Assembly: GCA_012026655.1 (NCBI GenBank)
Contig: JAAILG010000102.1
Span: 62,001-126,000, forward strand
DNA from: Hydrolagus affinis
Taxonomy: Eukaryota
Length of the DNA stretch: 64,000 bases
Direction of reading: 5' to 3'
Within the stretch, counting starts at the first letter, position 1, and the number at the start of each line of letters is the position of its first letter. Position numbers and translations under genes: made by a program. The notes below the pieces were generated by a model, which made no database searches, was not told the DNA's origin, and worked only from the letters and a program-made list of their open reading frames with translations. Shown piece by piece: positions 22,537-60,082 of this stretch.

Positions 22537-22916
22537 GGGAGTCTTGCAGCCCAGTGGTTAGAGCACTCGCCTCGCAAGCAAGAGACTCGGATTTTATTAC
22601 CAGCAGGGCAAAATGCTGGGCAAGTTTCATAGTCCACACACCTCTGTTTACCTAGCAGTAAGTTGAACCTGGTTCTTCGTCGGATAGAGGATCACTTTTC
22701 CAGGGATAATAATCCCCCCCAAAAAAACAATAACAATTTGGTCACTCAATCCACTACTGTTTGTGGGACATTGATGTATACACAAATGGCTGCTGCGTTT
22801 CGCCCACAAATATCCAATCTATATACACTTATATACACTTTACAGTATATGTGAAGCACTTTGAGACGTCTACAAGTCATAAAAATCGCTATTTAAAATG
22901 CAAGGACTATTATTAT
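22537..22916 (+). mobile_element. full-length tRNA(Ala-like)-headed SINE with CORE-like segment, Deu-like 3' segment and L2-like tail
   Basis: Head GGGAGTCTTGCAGCCCAGTGGTTAGAGCACTCGCCTCGCAAG; GGGCAAGTTTC...CCTCTGTTTACCTAGCAGTAAG...GGGATAATAATC; tail AAGCACTTTGAGACGTC...ATGCAAGGACTATTATT. Confidence 0.85.
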
Positions 22917-25507: not shown

Positions 25508-25525
25508 AAGATCAAAAACAAGAGT

Positions 25526-25828
25526 GGAATCCTGTAGGCCAGTGATTAGAGCAGTTGAGTTATAAGCGAGAGACCTGGGTTCGATTCCAGGCAGGGCAAA
25601 ACCTTGGGCAAGCTTCCTTACTCCACATTCCTAATAATAATCCCTCAAAAAAAATAAAAATTTAGTAATTTTCAATCTGTGACTGGTGGGACACTGGTGT
25701 GTGGAATTGGCTGCCGGGTTTCACCCACAAATATATACAGTCAATTCACTTTAAGGTATATTCTGTGAAGCGCTTTGAGACGTCTAGAAGACATGAAACG
25801 CATTATATCAAATGCAAGGATTATTATT
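25526..25828 (+). mobile_element. tRNA-headed SINE (same family as 22537), short subfamily
   Basis: B-box GGTTCGATTCC, CAGGGCAAAACCTTGGGCAAG, tail GAAGCGCTTTGAGACGTCTAGAAGACATG...ATGCAAGGATTATTATT. Confidence 0.85.
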
Positions 25829-41101: not shown

Positions 41102-41457
41102 CTTTGAGCTGCTGAGGGTTCTAGTGGCTTTACAATTTAGCGAGGCAATTAGCCTTGTCCAAATTCATTTTATTTAGGCCGCTTTAGCAATCATTGGAAA
41201 ACAGATCAGCAACCATAATGAGACTTTCAGGTTGAAACATTGGCTTTAAATTCAGCCAATATAGTTGTGATTCTAGGTTCCACTCAGTTCGTTCACATAC
41301 AGAGTTCAGTCATGCTTCCATTTATGAGAAGTAAAATTACCATGGAGCTACCAACTGAATTTTTGTTTTCTTGAAATAATTTCTTTAGCAATTTGTTCAA
41401 ATTGATTGAAAATTGTTTTTGAATTGCGGCTTGCAAGCCAAGCAAATCTGTTAAGTT

Positions 41458-41494
41458 GGTTCTGACGAAGGGTTGTGGACCCGAAACATTGACT
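41458..41494 (+). ncRNA. minimal type I hammerhead ribozyme motif (probably inactivated by CpG decay)
   Basis: CTGACGA core at 41462-68, extra A, stem II GGGTT/GACCC with GTG loop, GAAAC at 41483-87, short stem I GGTT/GACT. Confidence 0.6.
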
Positions 41495-41590
41495 CACTTT
41501 TCCTTTCTCCATAGATGCTGCCTGACCTGCTGAGTGTTCCCAGCAATTTGTTTTTGTTTCAGATTTCCAGCTTCTGCATTATTTTTTGTT
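41461..41590 (+). mobile_element. short Penelope-like-element terminal repeat derivative with 14-bp TSD
   Basis: TCTGACGAAGGG...GAAACATTGACTCAC...GATGCTGCCTGACCTGCTGAG...TTTCAGATTTCCAGC; TSD TCTGTTAAGT(T/A)GGT at 41447-41460 and 41591-41604. Confidence 0.8.
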
Positions 41591-44500
41591 TCTGTTAAGT
41601 AGGTATGACTGGAGTACTGTATTTTACTTGATTTAACCCTCAAACAAAAAATAATAAGAAATTGAAAGAGTGGACTTTTTTTTTCAAATTCTGTGCCTTC
41701 AACTTTGTAATAATATTTTTAAAAGGTTCAATGTAAGTTTCTGACTTCAGAAGTGGGAGTCAAATGTAATCTGCACCCAAGGTATTTATACTTCACAGGT
41801 GCAAATTGCACTTGATTTTCTACTGAATATCTTTGAATCTCACCTGCTGTGTTTATACTACAGTATAATGGATCCAAACTGCATTAGTCAGGTTAATATT
41901 GCACGGGTATGAATCACACCGCTCCGAAAAATATCTTTCTCTGGCATTGTCAAAAGCTCATTTTATGTTGCACACATTCCCTGAGTCCCATTTATGCCAC
42001 TAAGATGGCCACTAAGGTAGTAAAGTCTTAACACCCAGAGTGCACTAGATCATCCTTAGCTCACATTCAACTTGAGCTGCCAAGATATGAAAATGAACAT
42101 TAATTATGGATCTGTTCATTCCCATCATTGCCAATGATCCATCACCTTCCCTATTAGATCATATTCTCTTCTAACTTAATAATTAGATCTAATGGTTATA
42201 AATAAATAAATATTCACTGAGGCTGTTGCTGTGGGTTCTATAATACACAATGAGCATTGTCAGAAATTGGGTTGAGTTATTATACTGTTATAACGTTATT
42301 TAATATTACTCTGTAGTTATTTCAAATATTCTTCAAACAACAAATGGCTGTTGCAATCCTGCAAGATGGTCATTTCCAAAGATTCAATATGGTCTATTTG
42401 TAAAGGCAGCTCAAAGTGGCAATTCACCAATTTATTTTTCTAGCAAAGCAACATCTTCCTCTCATAGCAGGAACTGCACTTGACAAGAACAATAACTTGT
42501 ATTTTGAGGGAAGCCCAAGTGTGAATATTGGCCAAGCCTGATTTGATTCAGCAAAGGAAATCAACAGGTCCCACCACCAGATTGTATAGATAACTCTTTA
42601 TAGAGATGTCAGTTTCAAAATTAATTTAATTTCTTGTTAAACAGACCATCTGGTAAATGGTCATACACCTGCATGCCACACAACAGAAACTCATGCTCCA
42701 GAAAGGAAAAAGTTGGCAATCTGGCTCATTTAGATTTGAACAGTTATATAATAGGGCCATGTCTGTTCTGGTGCATTATTAATTGGCACCAATTAATAAT
42801 GTGCAAGTTGCCATTGTAAACAGTGAGAACAGGAAATAAGTGGGACTGTGAAACCGAGCAGCAGAAAGGCAAAGATTTCAAACAGGAGCCGCAAATTGGT
42901 TCTCAAGAGACATACGGTTTCTGAGGAAACACCTTATCTTAACTATTAAGAATTTATTTCGCACGTCAGTCAATTATTGTTACTTCACACAGGTAATGAT
43001 TCTCTTCAGAAATTGTTTGTGTTCTCTCACCCATGATTATCATGTGCAGCACGAAAGTTAAACAAGGTTGAAAATTACCCAATGGGATGGTATCAGCGTG
43101 GATCTGTGTTTTGAAGCATAATCCTATCTGTTTCAGTCTAGTTAATTGTGTGGATGTTAAAAAAAAGACTCATGGGTCTACTGTGTGCTTTCAGGAGCAA
43201 AACACTATTGCATTACTTCAAGTAATAAGCAACAGTCATAAACTCTGACATCATCACTTTAGGCGGTTTCACAGTGTTATAAATAAAATTTGTGGAGAAC
43301 ACACTTTATTAGAAAGTTTTAAAAAAATCATTTGCCTTAACCTTTCAGAAAATAGATAAATCACAATCTCTGTTGAAAATGTGGATGGAATCAGTGACAC
43401 CTACGCTTCACACAATAATATATTTGAACTAAAAATAAATCAGGTATCCTGTGCTCCATTGATCAAGTTGAAGTTTCACAGAGGACAATGGCAGATCATA
43501 GAGGTTATGTCTTGGCCCATGCACCAAACAGCTCCAGCTCCACTGAATACTGCTACAGTATATTATTAAGCAACAGATAAAGACGACTTGGTAAGGATTA
43601 GTTATTGTGGCCCAATTAGACTGACGTTGCGGTTGCCACTTTAGATCAAAGTCTAGCTTGATGCATTAATCTGTTTCAGTACTTTGGGAGTAATGTCATA
43701 TTACTTTCAGTTGCATTTGGGCAAGAGAAACTGGATTAATATTTCCTACTTCAATGCATTCTTGCCCTGGATTGAAAGAGATCTTTGCATACAATTAATT
43801 ATATTTTACTCATCTTCTCTGACCTTCTGGAGATGCTGGTCTTTCAGATTCAAGAATACACTTTTGTATACATCAAATAAAGTCCCTTTTACACTGATTA
43901 GTTCTACTACAAAACACAAAGCCTTTTCCGAGTTAGAAATGAAAGTGAATTGTTGTTAACGTGCAATACCCTCAGAATAAAATTTGTCTTCATCTTTCAT
44001 CTAAAAAGGCTCCCCCATCGGATTCCAGATTTAGTGAAGTTCACAGCAGATCAAACTTCCTTAAAATATTTCAAGCTAAAAATTGGACTAGTTTACTCTC
44101 TTTCAAATAAAGCTCTTGAATCCTGATGATATGATGCCAGACTCAAAAATCAATAGAGATTTAAGAATTTGCAGACACACCTCAATTAAACAGTGAAATC
44201 TTTAAATCAATTCAAAGAGAAATTGTGCTTGAGAGAAAGAGAACCAGTTCCTTAAGCTTATCTGGTTGAAATCATTAAGAACTAGAGAAAGCATATTAAA
44301 CTGCTTTCCCAGAACTCTGAAACACTAACCTACAGGTAGGGTGCTACATAAATGCAATTTATTGTCGTTAAAAATAATTCTAATTATTTAGATCTTTTTG
44401 ATAGAGTAAAACAAAACAGTTTCAAAACATAACTGTAAACATAACATTACTAAACTATGCTTTCTTCTAATACCAAAAGTTTAATTAAAAACTTTATTTC

Positions 44501-49314: not shown

Positions 49315-49620
49315 ATAATAACAATAGTAATAATCCTTGCATTTGATACAACGCTTTTCACATCTCCTAGACATCTCAAAGCACTTTACAGAATGTACTC
49401 TAAAGTGAGTTGGCCGTATATTTGTGGGCGAACACAGCAGTCAATTGCGCACAGTAGTGTCCCACAAACAGTTATGGATTGAATTGACCATTTTTTTTGG
49501 AGAGATTATTATTAGGCATACGGAGTAAGGAAACTTGCCCAAGGTTTCACCCTGCCTGGAATCGGACCCAGGTTTCTCGTTTGCAAGGTGAGTGCTCTAA
49601 CCACTGAGCTACAGGACTCC
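49315..49620 (-). mobile_element. full-length tRNA(Ala-like)-headed SINE, short subfamily
   Basis: Minus-strand head GGAGTCCTGTAGCTCAGTGGTTAGAGCACTCACCTTGCAAACGAGAAACCTGGGTCCGATTCC (A box, TGC anticodon-like loop, B box); tail ...ATGCAAGGATTATTAC. Confidence 0.88.
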
Positions 49621-54120: not shown

Positions 54121-54212
54121 CATATTTGATACCTAGGCAGACTTCAGCAATTGTACAGAAGTTCTTTTAACTTCATGAGTTAATGAATGTAAGTTAACTC
54201 AATGCATAACTG

Positions 54213-54373
54213 AAACAAAAACAGAAATCACTGGGAACACTCAACAGCAGGTCAGGCAGAATGTATCTATGGAGAAAGGAAAAGTGAGTCAACGGTTTGG
54301 GTCCACGACGAAGAGTCCAGAGATTTCTGTTTTTGTTTCAGATTTCCGGCATCTGTAGTATTTTGCGTTGTTG
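54213..54373. mobile_element. Penelope-like-element derivative, inverted + direct arms with internal deletion, 14-bp TSD
   Basis: AAACAAAAACAGAAATC...GTGAGTCAACGGTTTGGGTCCACGAC, then GATTTCTGTTTTTGTTTCAGATTTCCGGC; TSD TCAATGCATAACTG at 54199-54212 and 54374-54387. Confidence 0.8.
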
Positions 54374-54436
54374 TCAATGCATAACTGCATGTATTTCCAA
54401 ACCATCCAGATTATGAGCACACAACATTTAACTTCA

Positions 54437-55998: not shown

Positions 55999-58764
55999 TG
56001 AGCTAGATTTTAAAAACAAACATGATTCCATCTTGAGAATACTTCCTTTCCACTGCATTTAAAAGATGGGAAAATATTTAAATCATCTCAAACTTCAGAA
56101 ATGTTCGCAAGGTTTGTTAATCAGGTGGTTGATACCAATGATAGAAAATTAAATTTACCCATTTTTAGCGACCAGAGTTAGCAGCAAACATTAGACCTTT
56201 CTGACTGGATATAAAGTACTGCCAGACTTCCTTTTCTTCAACTCATTGCACTGTTCCCATTGTATTATTTTTAGCCATATTTGTAGATTATTTGTTATTT
56301 CCCTCCATCTCTCTTTGTAGATGGAGTCATCATGTCATCTTATCATCTCATGGGAGAAATGGCCTGCCCCATAAATCTACCATTTTAAACCTAACAATGA
56401 AACAAGATGACAGATCTTAGTAACTGTTCATTATTTAATTTTTAAAGGAAATACTGTAAAGTGTTTTTAAATTTAAATTCATCAGCTCATGTGTGTGTTC
56501 ATGTATGTGTTGAACTTCAGAAGTCCATATGGCAAGGATTTACTAATTCCCAATACCGTAGTCCTACTTTTTCAAGTTGATCAGGGTTAGCAAACTGGGA
56601 CTTGTAAATTCTAGTCAATGCATAAACATTTCTGCAGTGTCAAACATTAGAAATTGCTACTGATTGCTAGGCTTCCCCCTACAGATCACCCTGCCAAAAT
56701 AGCCAAGGACAAGATATATACCCAACCACAAAATCACCAGGGATTACCCACTGCTTTTCACTACTTCTCCTTTCTCCAGACTAACAACTGGGAAAATGAA
56801 TACATAATAAGCTGTCAAACATTTCTCCCATGAGATGATTAAGAATAAGATTGTTTGTCTCCCCCTGTGGCTTCAGCCAGAGGCAACAATCACTCCATAT
56901 TACATCTACAAAATTTACAGTAATTTACAGTAAAACAGAGACATTTCCATTATGCATATGCACAGAGAATGACTACTTTCCCAATGCATCAGTTTGGGTC
57001 TTGCTTATGTCAACACATATTTGAGAAGCATATACAGTACTATTGTTATCTGTTGTTATTTCCCTGTGATTTTTACTATCATGTTAACCCTTTCATTAAA
57101 ATCTATGAAATGGTGGTACCCAAGAATGCCAGTTCTCAGCCTGACAAGAATTTCCATTATATTTAATTGAAACTCACAAACCCTTTCAGACAATTTTAAT
57201 AGAAAATAGTTGAAAGGCTTTAATAGAATTTTACCTCCATTTACTTATAAAGGAGTACTGTAGTAACTTGCTGTTGCCTAGGTGTATTGGGAACAAACAT
57301 TAGGACAGCAACATTTACCATTATTTACGCTTGTGAATTTGATCCACCAATGCCATCAGAATCTCGAAAAAATACTTGTGCATATTAAAGAGGCAAAGTT
57401 TACACTTGGTTTGAACAAGTTTCTGAACTTTAAAAACAGCACCATTCATTGTACAAAGCATCACATCCAAAAGTAATTTACAGAAGAGCTCTTTGAACAT
57501 TTTCTAATAGCTTGGTATTTTTTTGCTGCTTAAGTATTGCAGCCAAGTCAGAAATCCACCGAATGGTTTTATCATTCCTTTGTATAATTACTGTCTGAAA
57601 AATCCTGTCTGCAGCCTATTTTGGGCAAAGCATTCTTTTCACTTTTGTTCTTCCTGTAGGGCATTTCAGAGACTTCTTCAGCTTGATTAATTTCCAAACA
57701 TCTTCTAAAAAAAAATCAAATTATAGACAATAGATCATTCAGATAACGCCTAAATATTTTGCTTTATCCCCCCGTTACTGTCATTTCCTTATTCTTCTGT
57801 AATTAGCCATTTCCTTCACTTTTTTCCTCAACAATAGATAATTTATTTCAATAGTTTTAATCTTGTAAAGACGGGGCAGGTTAAAAAGCTTAATCATCTT
57901 TCCCTGATTTCAGAACTGCAACATTATCACATTAATATGATTTAGGAATGTGAATTTTTAGAGTAATTCTGATGAATTTGTCAATGTATAGTATTTTTGA
58001 ACCTTCGTTTGGAATCCCATCCCAGTGTTTCATGTATAGATTAGTTCATAGTCATTTTATAAAGAGTCATTAAATATTTTTGACTTGCCTTCAAACTTTT
58101 AGTTCACAATATATTTAACATTCTTTTTCTATGTTTGTTTGTTTTTGCTCTTTTTTTTTAAAAACCAAATGGAATCGTATGTCCATTTTGTGAATGCTAC
58201 ATCACTTTTCTAAGCATTTTACTATTTGTGGGATATTGCTGGAGCCAGTGAGGGATATAAACTAGCTAAAAATCTGTTGATGGCAGAGAACCTGATTAGT
58301 AAAATGGCTTTAACACTAGCTAAGAAAACAGTTCTGCATGGGAGCTCCACTGGTTTCGGAGTGATGCCATTCTTGTTAGTTGGCACCAGATGGTCAGACA
58401 ATATGCAAATGATGAGTGGTTCATGGTAGAAGGTTGCCTTCTGGGTTAATGCAATCTCTGAAACCAAACAGACACCCAGGAGGTCTTGAAACAGCTCAAT
58501 GATCTGAACAAAAAGTATTAAGGGAAGCCAGCATCTAATTAGTTTTAAACAAATATGCTCCACGAGTTTTTATTAGAAATATTCATTCATTTTAGGTATA
58601 TTTGAAGTGTTACTGCCATAGATTTTTTTCTTCTTTAGGATTTAGCAATTTTTAATAATTTTTCAAACTTTTTCTTGCAGTATTATGATATGATAAATGG
58701 CGTGATCTCTTTGAAGCTATTATGACAGTATTGGGGTTGACAATGCAACATTCACAAACTGGAA

Positions 58765-58993
58765 CAAAAACAGAAGTTGCTGGAAAAGCTCAGCAGGTCA
58801 GGCAGCATCCATGGAGAAAAAAAAGTGAGTCAATGTTTCAGGTCCACGACCCTTCGTCAGTTCTGACGAAGTTCTGAGGAAGGGTCGTGAACTCACTTTC
58901 CTTTCTCCATGGATGCTGCCTGACCTGCTGAGCTTTCCCAGCAACTTCTGTTTTTGTTTCAGATTTCCAGCTTCTGTAGTATTTTATTTTTTT
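58765..58993. mobile_element. palindromic Penelope-like-element derivative with 15-bp TSD and hammerhead core
   Basis: Inverted arms 58763-58830 / 58891-58958 (3 mismatches in 68 bp); TSD ATTCACAAACTGGAA at 58750-58764 and 58994-59008; minus strand 58827-58860 reads CTGACGAAGGGTCGTGGACCTGAAACATTGACTC. Confidence 0.85.
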
Positions 58994-60082
58994 ATTCACA
59001 AACTGGAAATAGCCTTGCAAATTGTGAATTCCACTTTGTGAATTGTGTGATTTCATACCAAATTTACTATTTTTGAAAAAATAACCGGTTTCTGCCAAAA
59101 AAACACAATCCTGAAATCTAACAAAGTTTAGCTATATTTCGCCCAGCATTCTGTTTTTCTGACCTGCGTTGGATTTTCTTGGTAGAAAAATAACACTCGG
59201 CAAAATTCCATCTTAAATTGAAAACTGGAAGTTGCAAACATTGCAGTAGCTTCAGCCTTGCAGGTGCTGCATTCCCAACCTCTGAGTTGGACTGAACCAA
59301 ACTCAAAGTGGAGCTATGCTCAAAGTTTACCTGGCACAGCTCTGTTAATGCTTAGTGGATTGCCTGAGGCTTTCAATGCTCTGTTCTTGAGGTTAAAGTA
59401 AGTTGTTCTTACTCCAAACACCTTCTCTGTGTTGTCTGTGAGTTGATATACTCTTTAATCTTGATCTCTCTTAGTAACAATAAGAACCAATCACAAATAC
59501 TGTACCAACAAAGAAATCCTCAGCAAAAACAACACTACTCTCATAGTAAGAAATCCTCACGATAAATCGTGAGAAACACACTCCTCACCATTTACAAGAT
59601 TCAATTTTCTCTGATGGGTATATGCGTACATGAGAATACAAACATTTAGTGACTCTTCAAGTTATCAAAGAAATGGAGGCAACTTTGGGGCTGGTTTCCA
59701 TGCCAACTTGGACGGTGCAATCTGGTTTGCAACTCCCACCATCAAATGTTGAATTGCCTCTAGGCAGAGAATAACTCCATAAGAGTGGAAAATACAAAAT
59801 TATATGGCAATTACCACTGCCCCAGGCAAGTTTTACTCTGAGTCCTCACAGACAGCATGGAAGTCAGAATTGCTTATTGAGGGTACTGATAATGTAAAGA
59901 TAGGACTCAGGTGATTTATTAAAACTGATCTAGTTTTTGTCTGTTTCTAAAGTTCAAATGATCGCAATAAAATTAGTTATTTGACCACATTACAGTTAAA
60001 TTAAGATAACAAATCAGGTCTTTGTAACAAATCAGGCAGAAGTGTATTACTAGCTTCTTATCATTAGAATATTCGCTGTCTC

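What the first reader, a model, noticed from the sequence alone, without database searches (positions are those of the whole stretch)
41447..41604. TSD-flanked 130-bp element that begins at a minimal hammerhead ribozyme core
Seen: the element starts TCTGACGA-A-GGGTT-GTG-GACCC-GAAAC-ATT-GACT. This gives a CUGANGA core, stem II, GAAA and a 4-bp stem I (GGTT/GACT), inside a 14-bp TSD with one mismatch. Known: Penelope-like elements carry minimal type I hammerheads in their pseudo-LTRs, and variants with a very short palindromic stem III cleave as dimers. Inference: the 54.2 kb sibling has CGTT at the same position, so the ancestor was probably GAAACGTT (palindromic AACGTT, GUU cleavage site) and CATT is CpG decay. 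The family looks like a non-autonomous, retrozyme-like short element mobilised by a Penelope enzyme.
Basis: partly seen in the sequence, partly recalled or inferred. Interest (0 to 1): 0.7.

Follow-up and report, generated by a model that had tools for sequence, protein, structure and literature searches.

The report
Solo hammerhead leader of Penelope retrotransposon
This 130-base insertion is the ribozyme-bearing end piece of a common, protein-coding Penelope-like retrotransposon, likely a dead short copy made when reverse transcription ran off the front end of the element's RNA, and not a separate kind of mobile element.

Summary
A minimal hammerhead motif (41458-41494) opens a 130-bp element inside a 14-bp TSD with one mismatch. 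CpG decay is confirmed: the family majority is GAAACGTT. The Penelope link is direct: the same sequence is both the 5' leader and the 3' tail of a ~3.1-kb RT + GIY-YIG element with the Neptune-type cysteine linker. The 'non-autonomous retrozyme family' reading is not supported: short and ORF-linked copies intermix on a tree, include identical rows, and are not tandem. About 2x10^4 loci per genome (22 in 1.1 Mb). The modal TSD is 14 bp. The less expected part: 5' ends pile up at the hammerhead's first bases (67 of 92; 21 of 30 in a separate set; 4 of 5 ORF-start copies), with no significant pile-up at the cleavage site. Inverted partners end near position 100, direct arms near 134. This suggests run-off cDNA from uncleaved RNA primed at two internal sites (inferred). 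This copy's ribozyme is likely dead. Known class, new member; modest mechanistic interest.

The parts
41447..41460 (+). Left target-site duplication (14 bp; last GT shared with the element's 5' edge)
   Evidence: 14 bp is the family mode
41461..41590 (+). Solo leader/pseudo-LTR of a Neptune-type Penelope-like element (hammerhead, leader and long tail)
   Evidence: 86-90% identical to the 3' end of RT/EN-bearing copies L081, L085-L088; the same segment precedes the ORF start
41458..41494 (+). Minimal type I hammerhead motif: stem I 41458-61/41491-94, CUGACGA 41462-68, stem II 41470-82, GAAA 41483-86, decayed palindrome ACAU 41486-89, predicted cleavage between 41490 and 41491
   Evidence: family majority CGTT
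41560..41590 (+). Optional ~30-34 nt Penelope 'tail' (between the ~100 and ~134 3'-end classes); boundaries approximate
   Evidence: bimodal 3' ends; 59 of 62 inverted partners end at or before 111
41591..41604 (+). Right target-site duplication
54199..54387 (.). Sibling insertion: head-to-head arms (inverted arm positions 12-102, direct arm with its 5' part largely missing) inside an exact 14-bp TSD (54199-54212 / 54374-54387)
58750..59008 (.). Sibling insertion: head-to-head arms, both starting at the hammerhead edge, inside an exact 15-bp TSD (58750-58764 / 58994-59008)

Best explanation
The element is a solo copy of the ~135-nt hammerhead-plus-leader repeat that forms both ends of an autonomous Neptune-type Penelope-like retrotransposon, likely made when the element's own reverse transcriptase started inside the 5' leader of uncleaved RNA and ran off its 5' end. 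Shown: identity with both ends of the ORF-bearing element, the ~14-bp TSD class, the 5'-end pile-up at the hammerhead's first bases, two 3'-end classes, and neutral CpG decay. Inferred: the GIY-YIG nuclease, probably as a dimer, cuts both strands about 14 nt apart; each 3'-OH can prime at one of two internal U-rich sites (about 100 and about 134); the RNA begins at or near the A of CCCCAGTT, the first base of stem I; priming in the 5' copy of the leader gives these short copies, and priming in the 3' copy gives the longer 5'-truncated ones. The hammerhead would work only as a dimer through ACGU in the master element. In this copy ACGU has become ACAU, so it is predicted to be inactive.
For: Near-full copy L081: leader fragment (positions 59-130), ORF, 3' UTR, then hammerhead and tail. 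RVT_1 E 1.5e-6 and GIY-YIG E 0.0029, both under the Pfam gathering cut-offs; Atlas top cluster RVT_1/HTH_animal/GIY-YIG at 0.97; DKG, CX4CxxC linker and CxxC inside the GIY-YIG region in natural copies. 27 of 30 copies found with the upstream 3' UTR query continue directly into the motif (one of the 30 is the query's own locus; L042 and L053 break at the junction and L054 is internally deleted). 5' ends: 67 of 92 pieces reaching position +3 stop within -6..+3, while only 12 of the 25 that pass stop in the next 100 nt (unselected subset 7 of 12). Core-pattern set: 21 of 30 stop within 7 nt of position 1. ORF-start copies that reach the motif: 4 of 5 independent ones start there. Public contigs X1 show loose ends at -1/-2 (80 and 104). 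Both arms start at the edge in 11 of 48 inverted insertions from sets not selected with the full 130-mer, which recombination does not readily explain. TSD lengths 13-15 in 37 of 56, with mirrored A (-10: 33/56) and T (+9: 34/56) flanks. In vitro precedent: both strands cut and extended, two internal RT starts that define the tail, unprocessed RNA the main substrate (PMC11167929). CpG-linked core G8/G12 are mutated in 45 of 162 cells, against 81 of 321 at other CpGs and 39 of 726 at non-CpG core sites (subfamily A), so genomic copies are not under selection. Duplex energy of the 6-mer around the palindrome: ACGU -3.5, ACAU +2.8 kcal/mol.
Against: No direct RNA 5'-end data. A cap-like extra G before AGT was seen in 8 of 15 (p 0.01) but in only 1 of 4 in the separate set, and could also come from target sequence or cDNA fold-back. 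In D. virilis Penelope the start site lies 46 nt upstream of a 75-nt intron (PMC2377424) whose 3' end maps to helix I (PMC4209133), and CCCCAG|TT here looks like a splice acceptor, so the edge need not be the start site. Most sets came from similarity searches that return the best 40 candidates, and alignment ends are uncertain by a few bases. Short/long labels are more clustered than shuffles (32 against 44.5, 0 of 500), and four columns differ between short and long subfamily-A copies (p 2e-6 to 1e-3); I attribute this to query bias (table) but did not remove it. No intact full-length ORF was seen. No cleavage assay.
Confidence: 0.7

Rival explanations
1. One reading: a separate non-autonomous, retrozyme- or SINE-like short family, transcribed from its own masters and mobilised in trans by the Penelope protein.
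For: Short copies dominate and share a 5' edge. The protein-binding region lies in this leader in PAc (PMC11167929), so a transcribed solo copy could be a substrate. Some short/long differences in subfamily A. Animal retrozymes are proposed to be pLTR derivatives (bioRxiv 10.64898/2026.07.22.740005).
Against: Identical short and long rows and 32 label changes; no column differs in subfamily B (best p 0.12; 35 short, 20 long); no tandem arrays; the segment has no sequence that is absent from the autonomous element; ORF-start copies share the same 5' edge.
Confidence: 0.12
2. Solo pseudo-LTRs arise by recombination between the two terminal repeats of full-length insertions, as solo LTRs do.
For: The full element has direct terminal repeats; a solo copy inside one TSD is the structure this predicts; solo pLTRs were ascribed to recombination or deletion in a rotifer (PMC3846280).
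Against: 48 of 85 insertions are head-to-head, and 11 of those 48 have both arms starting at the edge. First-look candidates: 203 for the ORF start against 2458 for the leader, both lower bounds. Junctions often carry extra or duplicated bases.
Confidence: 0.08
3. The RNA starts further upstream, and the 5' pile-up comes from RT stalling at the folded hammerhead, or from processing at the acceptor-like AG just before it.
For: The D. virilis intron ends at helix I; a pyrimidine tract plus CCCCAG precedes the motif; several copies show deletions across the hammerhead (junction list), so RT does sense the structure.
Against: RT meets the structure first near position 34 and has melted it by -2, so a stall is expected at the other side (inference). 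No shared exon-1 sequence lies upstream of the edge: the longest matches to the element body were no greater than for random DNA in 59 of 61. No splice joint at this site was listed in the RNA runs.
Confidence: 0.1

Closest known systems
Neptune-clade Penelope-like elements with minimal hammerheads in the pLTR (Cervera and de la Pena 2014, PMC4209133; Craig et al. 2021, PMC8557442)
   Same: RT then C-terminal GIY-YIG, CX2-5CxxC linker, DKG, minimal hammerhead with unpaired base after A9, G10.1-C11.1 pair and palindromic 15.2/16.2, 5' truncation, head-to-head inversions, optional 30-40 nt tail at one end; most motifs occur as single copies of truncated elements.
   Different: Stem II is 5 bp; no (TA)n targeting seen; TSDs are tightly 13-15 bp, longer than the 8-10 bp in rotifer elements (PMC3846280); the sharp 5' edge at helix I is not described in the passages I read.
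PAc, Poseidon of Anolis carolinensis (Frangieh et al. 2024, PMC11167929)
   Same: Hammerhead at the pLTR-ORF junction, two RT start sites that define the tail, AT-rich targets, both strands cut, template apparently uncleaved.
   Different: Different clade (Poseidon lacks the cysteine linker). In PAc the ORF starts inside stem II; here the ATG lies about 170 nt downstream, beyond the tail. Start sites here are U-rich, not AC-rich.
Metazoan non-LTR retrozymes (PMC7229834; bioRxiv 10.64898/2026.07.22.740005)
   Same: Type I hammerhead, non-coding, related to pLTRs, TSDs longer than 4 bp.
   Different: Retrozymes are tandem repeats of 150-450 bp units, mostly with canonical hammerheads, expressed as circles. 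This family is dispersed monomers or head-to-head pairs with a minimal hammerhead, and is part of the autonomous element.

Membership tests
Penelope-like element, EN+ (parent element) | Single ORF with RT and C-terminal GIY-YIG endonuclease in cis with the motif | tested here: met
   L066/L081 487-aa frame RVT_1 E 1.5e-6; L072 GIY-YIG E 0.0029, both below gathering; Atlas 0.97; in cis. All copies seen are broken.
Penelope-like element, EN+ (parent element) | Terminal direct repeat (pLTR) with optional 30-40 nt tail, 5' truncation and inverted partners | tested here: met
Neptune clade | CX2-5CxxC linker between RT and EN, DKG motif, cysteines inside GIY-YIG, C-terminal EN | tested here: met
   CQRRRCNTC and CIRCSWC in L072; PADKGG in L066; definitions
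Neptune clade | RT phylogeny placing it with Neptune rather than Nematis (which shares the linker) | not testable with these tools
PLE minimal type I hammerhead | CUGANGA, unpaired base, stem II closed by G10.1-C11.1, GAAA, NUH and short stem I | tested here: met
   descriptor hit, 0 in shuffles; family majority
PLE minimal type I hammerhead | Palindromic 15.2-16.2 for dimer helix III | tested here: not met
   Not met in this copy (ACAU, duplex +2.8 kcal/mol); met in the family majority (ACGU, -3.5)
PLE minimal type I hammerhead | Compensatory covariation in stems | tested here: inconclusive
   Only one-sided changes between subfamilies (stem I U-G/C-G; stem II C-G/U-G; loop GUG/GUA); a genome-wide core pattern gave 81 hits (control 1), nearly all this family
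PLE minimal type I hammerhead | Self-cleavage as a dimer or with protein help | not testable with these tools
   needs an assay
Non-LTR retrozyme | Head-to-tail tandem units each with a hammerhead | tested here: not met
   1 same-strand pair within 1 kb among 106 core-bearing pieces, about 500 bp apart
Non-LTR retrozyme | Lineage independent of the autonomous element | tested here: not met
   intermixed tree with identical short and long rows; partial caveat
Non-LTR retrozyme | Expression as monomeric linear or circular RNA | tested here: inconclusive
   Poly(A) single-cell runs of another organism label show both orientations, 65-73% of reads running on into unlike sequence, no end pile-up; such libraries cannot show small circles

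The most novel reading that the evidence does not exclude
The genomic copies record the Neptune transposition cycle: the RNA begins at the first base of the hammerhead, the ribozyme stays uncleaved in transposing RNA (its CUGACGA core can pair with its own CGUU), and a dimeric nuclease cuts with a ~14-nt stagger whose two ends prime two different internal sites, so that most insertions are ~135-nt run-off copies and head-to-head pairs with one long and one short tail.
Probability: 0.4. Interest if true: 0.6.

Novelty: new member of a known kind. Interest (0 to 1): 0.35.

Why it matters
As a single locus it is ordinary: one of roughly 20,000 decayed ends of a known class of retrotransposon. The family-level pattern bears on two open questions, what the Penelope hammerhead does and how tails and inverted ends arise. 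If the 5' edge is the RNA start, cleavage would decap the RNA and cut off the 3' priming sites, making the ribozyme a brake or an off-pathway switch, not a maturation step for the copies seen. The young subfamily gives precise coordinates for testing this. It also warns annotators that such TSD-flanked 130-bp repeats can be mistaken for SINEs or retrozymes.

Tried and rejected
Rfam scan of the window at E<=5: no hammerhead family. Pfam on two short fragments: 0 of 2. PDB sequence search with the RT frame: 0 hits at E<=1. tblastn of the RT-EN frame against the window: no hit, so no parent ORF lies in the window. 5' ends at the ribozyme cleavage site: 10 of 35 ends in positions 14-47 fall in 28-33 (p 0.08), and several of these are internal deletions across the hammerhead, so I rejected a cleavage-site peak. 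Cap-G signature: not replicated. Shared exon-1 sequence upstream of the edge: none. Search for other hammerhead families to obtain covariation: nearly all 81 hits are this family. Sequencing runs: no RNA holder listed; the RNA runs laid were additions from another organism label and show no molecule-end pile-ups, which is uninformative for fragmented libraries. Monomer folding z-scores were not significant (0.07, 0.66, -1.17). Earlier scan findings: none returned. Literature searches found no report of a 5'-end pile-up at the hammerhead edge or of this family; the library is partial, Repbase/Dfam were not available and supplements were not read, so absence is weak.

Full report
Numbering. Position 1 is window 41461; the family's upstream bases CCCCAGT are -6..0; predicted cleavage lies between 30 and 31.

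Observation. The 130-bp element, the 14-bp TSD with one mismatch and the hammerhead motif are present as described. A descriptor finds this motif once in the window, twice in 1.1 Mb of unselected stretches (both this family) and never in 5 shuffles. Rfam has no matching model at E<=5. Three of the four stem I 5' bases fall in the left TSD; the family strand is AGTT/AGTC. Two sibling insertions in the window are head-to-head pairs with exact 14- and 15-bp TSDs.

What it belongs to. The genome (1.11 Gb) gave 2458 first-look candidates for the 130-mer; 22 loci in 110 unselected 10-kb stretches extrapolate to about 2x10^4 (stretches came from larger contigs). Eight of the first 30 loci were examined upstream and several run into a shared 3' UTR and the end of a GIY-YIG frame. 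A search with that upstream part returned 30 loci, 27 of which continue into the motif. A protein search led to L081, about 3.1 kb: leader positions 59-130, a broken ORF, 3' UTR, then hammerhead and tail. The frame matches RVT_1 (E 1.5e-6) and, in L072, GIY-YIG (E 0.0029), both under gathering; the Atlas top cluster is RVT_1/HTH_animal/GIY-YIG at 0.97. DKG, a CX4CxxC linker and CxxC within the nuclease are present, which fits Neptune or Nematis by the definitions read; Neptune is the vertebrate-associated choice but was not tested on a tree. The window element is 86-90% identical to the ends of five RT-bearing loci. The ATG lies about 170 nt from position 1. I recall similar repeats from cartilaginous fish; no call establishes the organism.

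Is it a separate short family? In 137 pieces from loci L031-L290 (the first 30 loci were left out because they were selected by likeness to the window copy), short (78) and long (59) copies need 32 label changes on the tree and include identical rows; shuffles average 44.5, so there is some clustering, which follows the queries used. No column separates short from long in subfamily B; four do in A. One same-strand pair within 1 kb was found among 106 core-bearing pieces. So it does not meet the tandem definition of non-LTR retrozymes (PMC7229834, passages; bioRxiv 10.64898/2026.07.22.740005, parts 1-3 of 5). Single minimal hammerheads as remnants of truncated PLEs are already described (PMC4209133, parts 1-2 of 4).

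Hammerhead state. Majority bases give an intact core and ACGU in both subfamilies; at the palindrome CpG, subfamily A has C 61/T 17 and G 45/A 30 of 82. CpG-linked core positions decay as fast as other CpGs (45/162 against 81/321; non-CpG core 39/726). Only 15 of 137 pieces keep a strict intact motif. Subfamily differences are one-sided wobble changes. The window copy has lost the palindrome and carries U-G in stem II, so it is predicted inactive. A young copy's predicted monomer fold keeps stems I and II but pairs the core GACG with CGUU (z -1.17, not significant).

Ends and targets. TSD score >=9 in 59 of 113 long-tail insertions against 0.9% of mismatched flanks (loci L031-L090, edge-cut units and units longer than the reference were excluded). 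Of 56 kept (two over 17 nt and one duplicate dropped), 37 are 13-15 bp, mode 14, with mirrored A and T flanks and an A/T centre. 3' ends are bimodal near 100 and 134; 59 of 62 inverted partners of long-tail arms end at or before 111, about 30 of them at 98-105. 5' ends: from three searches with the 3' half only (128 pieces; six self or duplicate loci and edge-cut pieces dropped) and the unselected stretches (24 pieces), 67 of 92 reaching +3 stop in -6..+3, while 12 of the 25 that pass stop in the next 100 nt. A core-pattern search gave 21 of 30 starting within 7 nt of position 1. Among 30 loci found with the ORF start, eight reach the motif in cis; four share one flank and count once; 4 of 5 independent ones start at the edge and one is a partial tandem. 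Public contigs show loose ends at -1/-2 and a steep fall in depth upstream; subfamily divergence upstream inflates that fall. There is no significant excess at the cleavage site.

Mechanism. PAc cuts and extends both strands, starts RT at two internal sites that bound the tail, and uses mainly unprocessed RNA (PMC11167929, parts 1-2 of 4). Applied here (inference): an RNA starting at stem I carries the leader twice; priming in the first copy runs off after about 100 or 135 nt, priming in the last copy gives ordinary 5'-truncated elements, and priming from both cut ends gives head-to-head pairs with unequal tails. CCAGTT resembles an initiator consensus (recalled, not from a call). Against this: no RNA-end data, a non-replicated cap-G signal (8 of 15, then 1 of 4), and the D. 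virilis arrangement in which an intron ends at helix I and the start lies upstream (PMC2377424 passages). I put parent identity at about 0.95 and the run-off mechanism at about 0.55-0.6.

Other papers: PMC8557442 and PMC3846280 were seen as passages; the rest only as search listings. No supplements were read; those of PMC4209133 and PMC8557442 list hammerhead families and might include this one.

Verdict. Real feature, correctly spotted, of a known class. Not a new non-autonomous family. Interest 0.35, mainly for the family-level end pattern.

Noticed in passing
L229, L232, L241, L246, L255, L257, L274 (TSDs): At least 6 of 56 TSDs (7 counting L241) duplicate the same ~14-bp site, TTCACTTTACAGTAT, of an abundant SINE-like repeat, in both orientations, against about 0.2 expected; three more (L028, L207, L214) hit a second site of that repeat's tail (0.3 expected). 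Suggests a preferred cut site.
   Followed up: partly
L302, L306, L307, L311, L313, L314, L296-L298, L304: Internally deleted forms: the ORF start (110-980 nt, with or without the leader) joined to a second leader copy that begins at or shortly upstream of the hammerhead edge; compatible with run-off then template jump, or with deletion derivatives. L296-L298 and L304 share a long upstream flank.
   Followed up: no
L231-L260: A young subfamily with at least 40 copies identical over 83 nt, stem I AGTC/GACT, and clean TSDs; the best material for assays.
   Followed up: partly
L347 (G000:C6013): A diverged hammerhead-bearing repeat with a different stem II and downstream sequence; its upstream bases are TGAGT, as at this family's 5' edge, so it may be an older PLE family.
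   Followed up: no
L212, L222, L235, L157, window 58861-58891: Deletions that remove the hammerhead core and join the stem I 5' side to the region of the cleavage site, as if RT jumped across the folded motif.
   Followed up: partly
window 49547-49618 (-), 22540-22611 (+), 25525-25654 and families D1-D10: tRNA-like heads (Rfam tRNA 38.9 and 22.6 bits) and several abundant SINE-like repeats ending in (GTT)n or (ATT)n; ordinary repeats, not studied.
   Followed up: no
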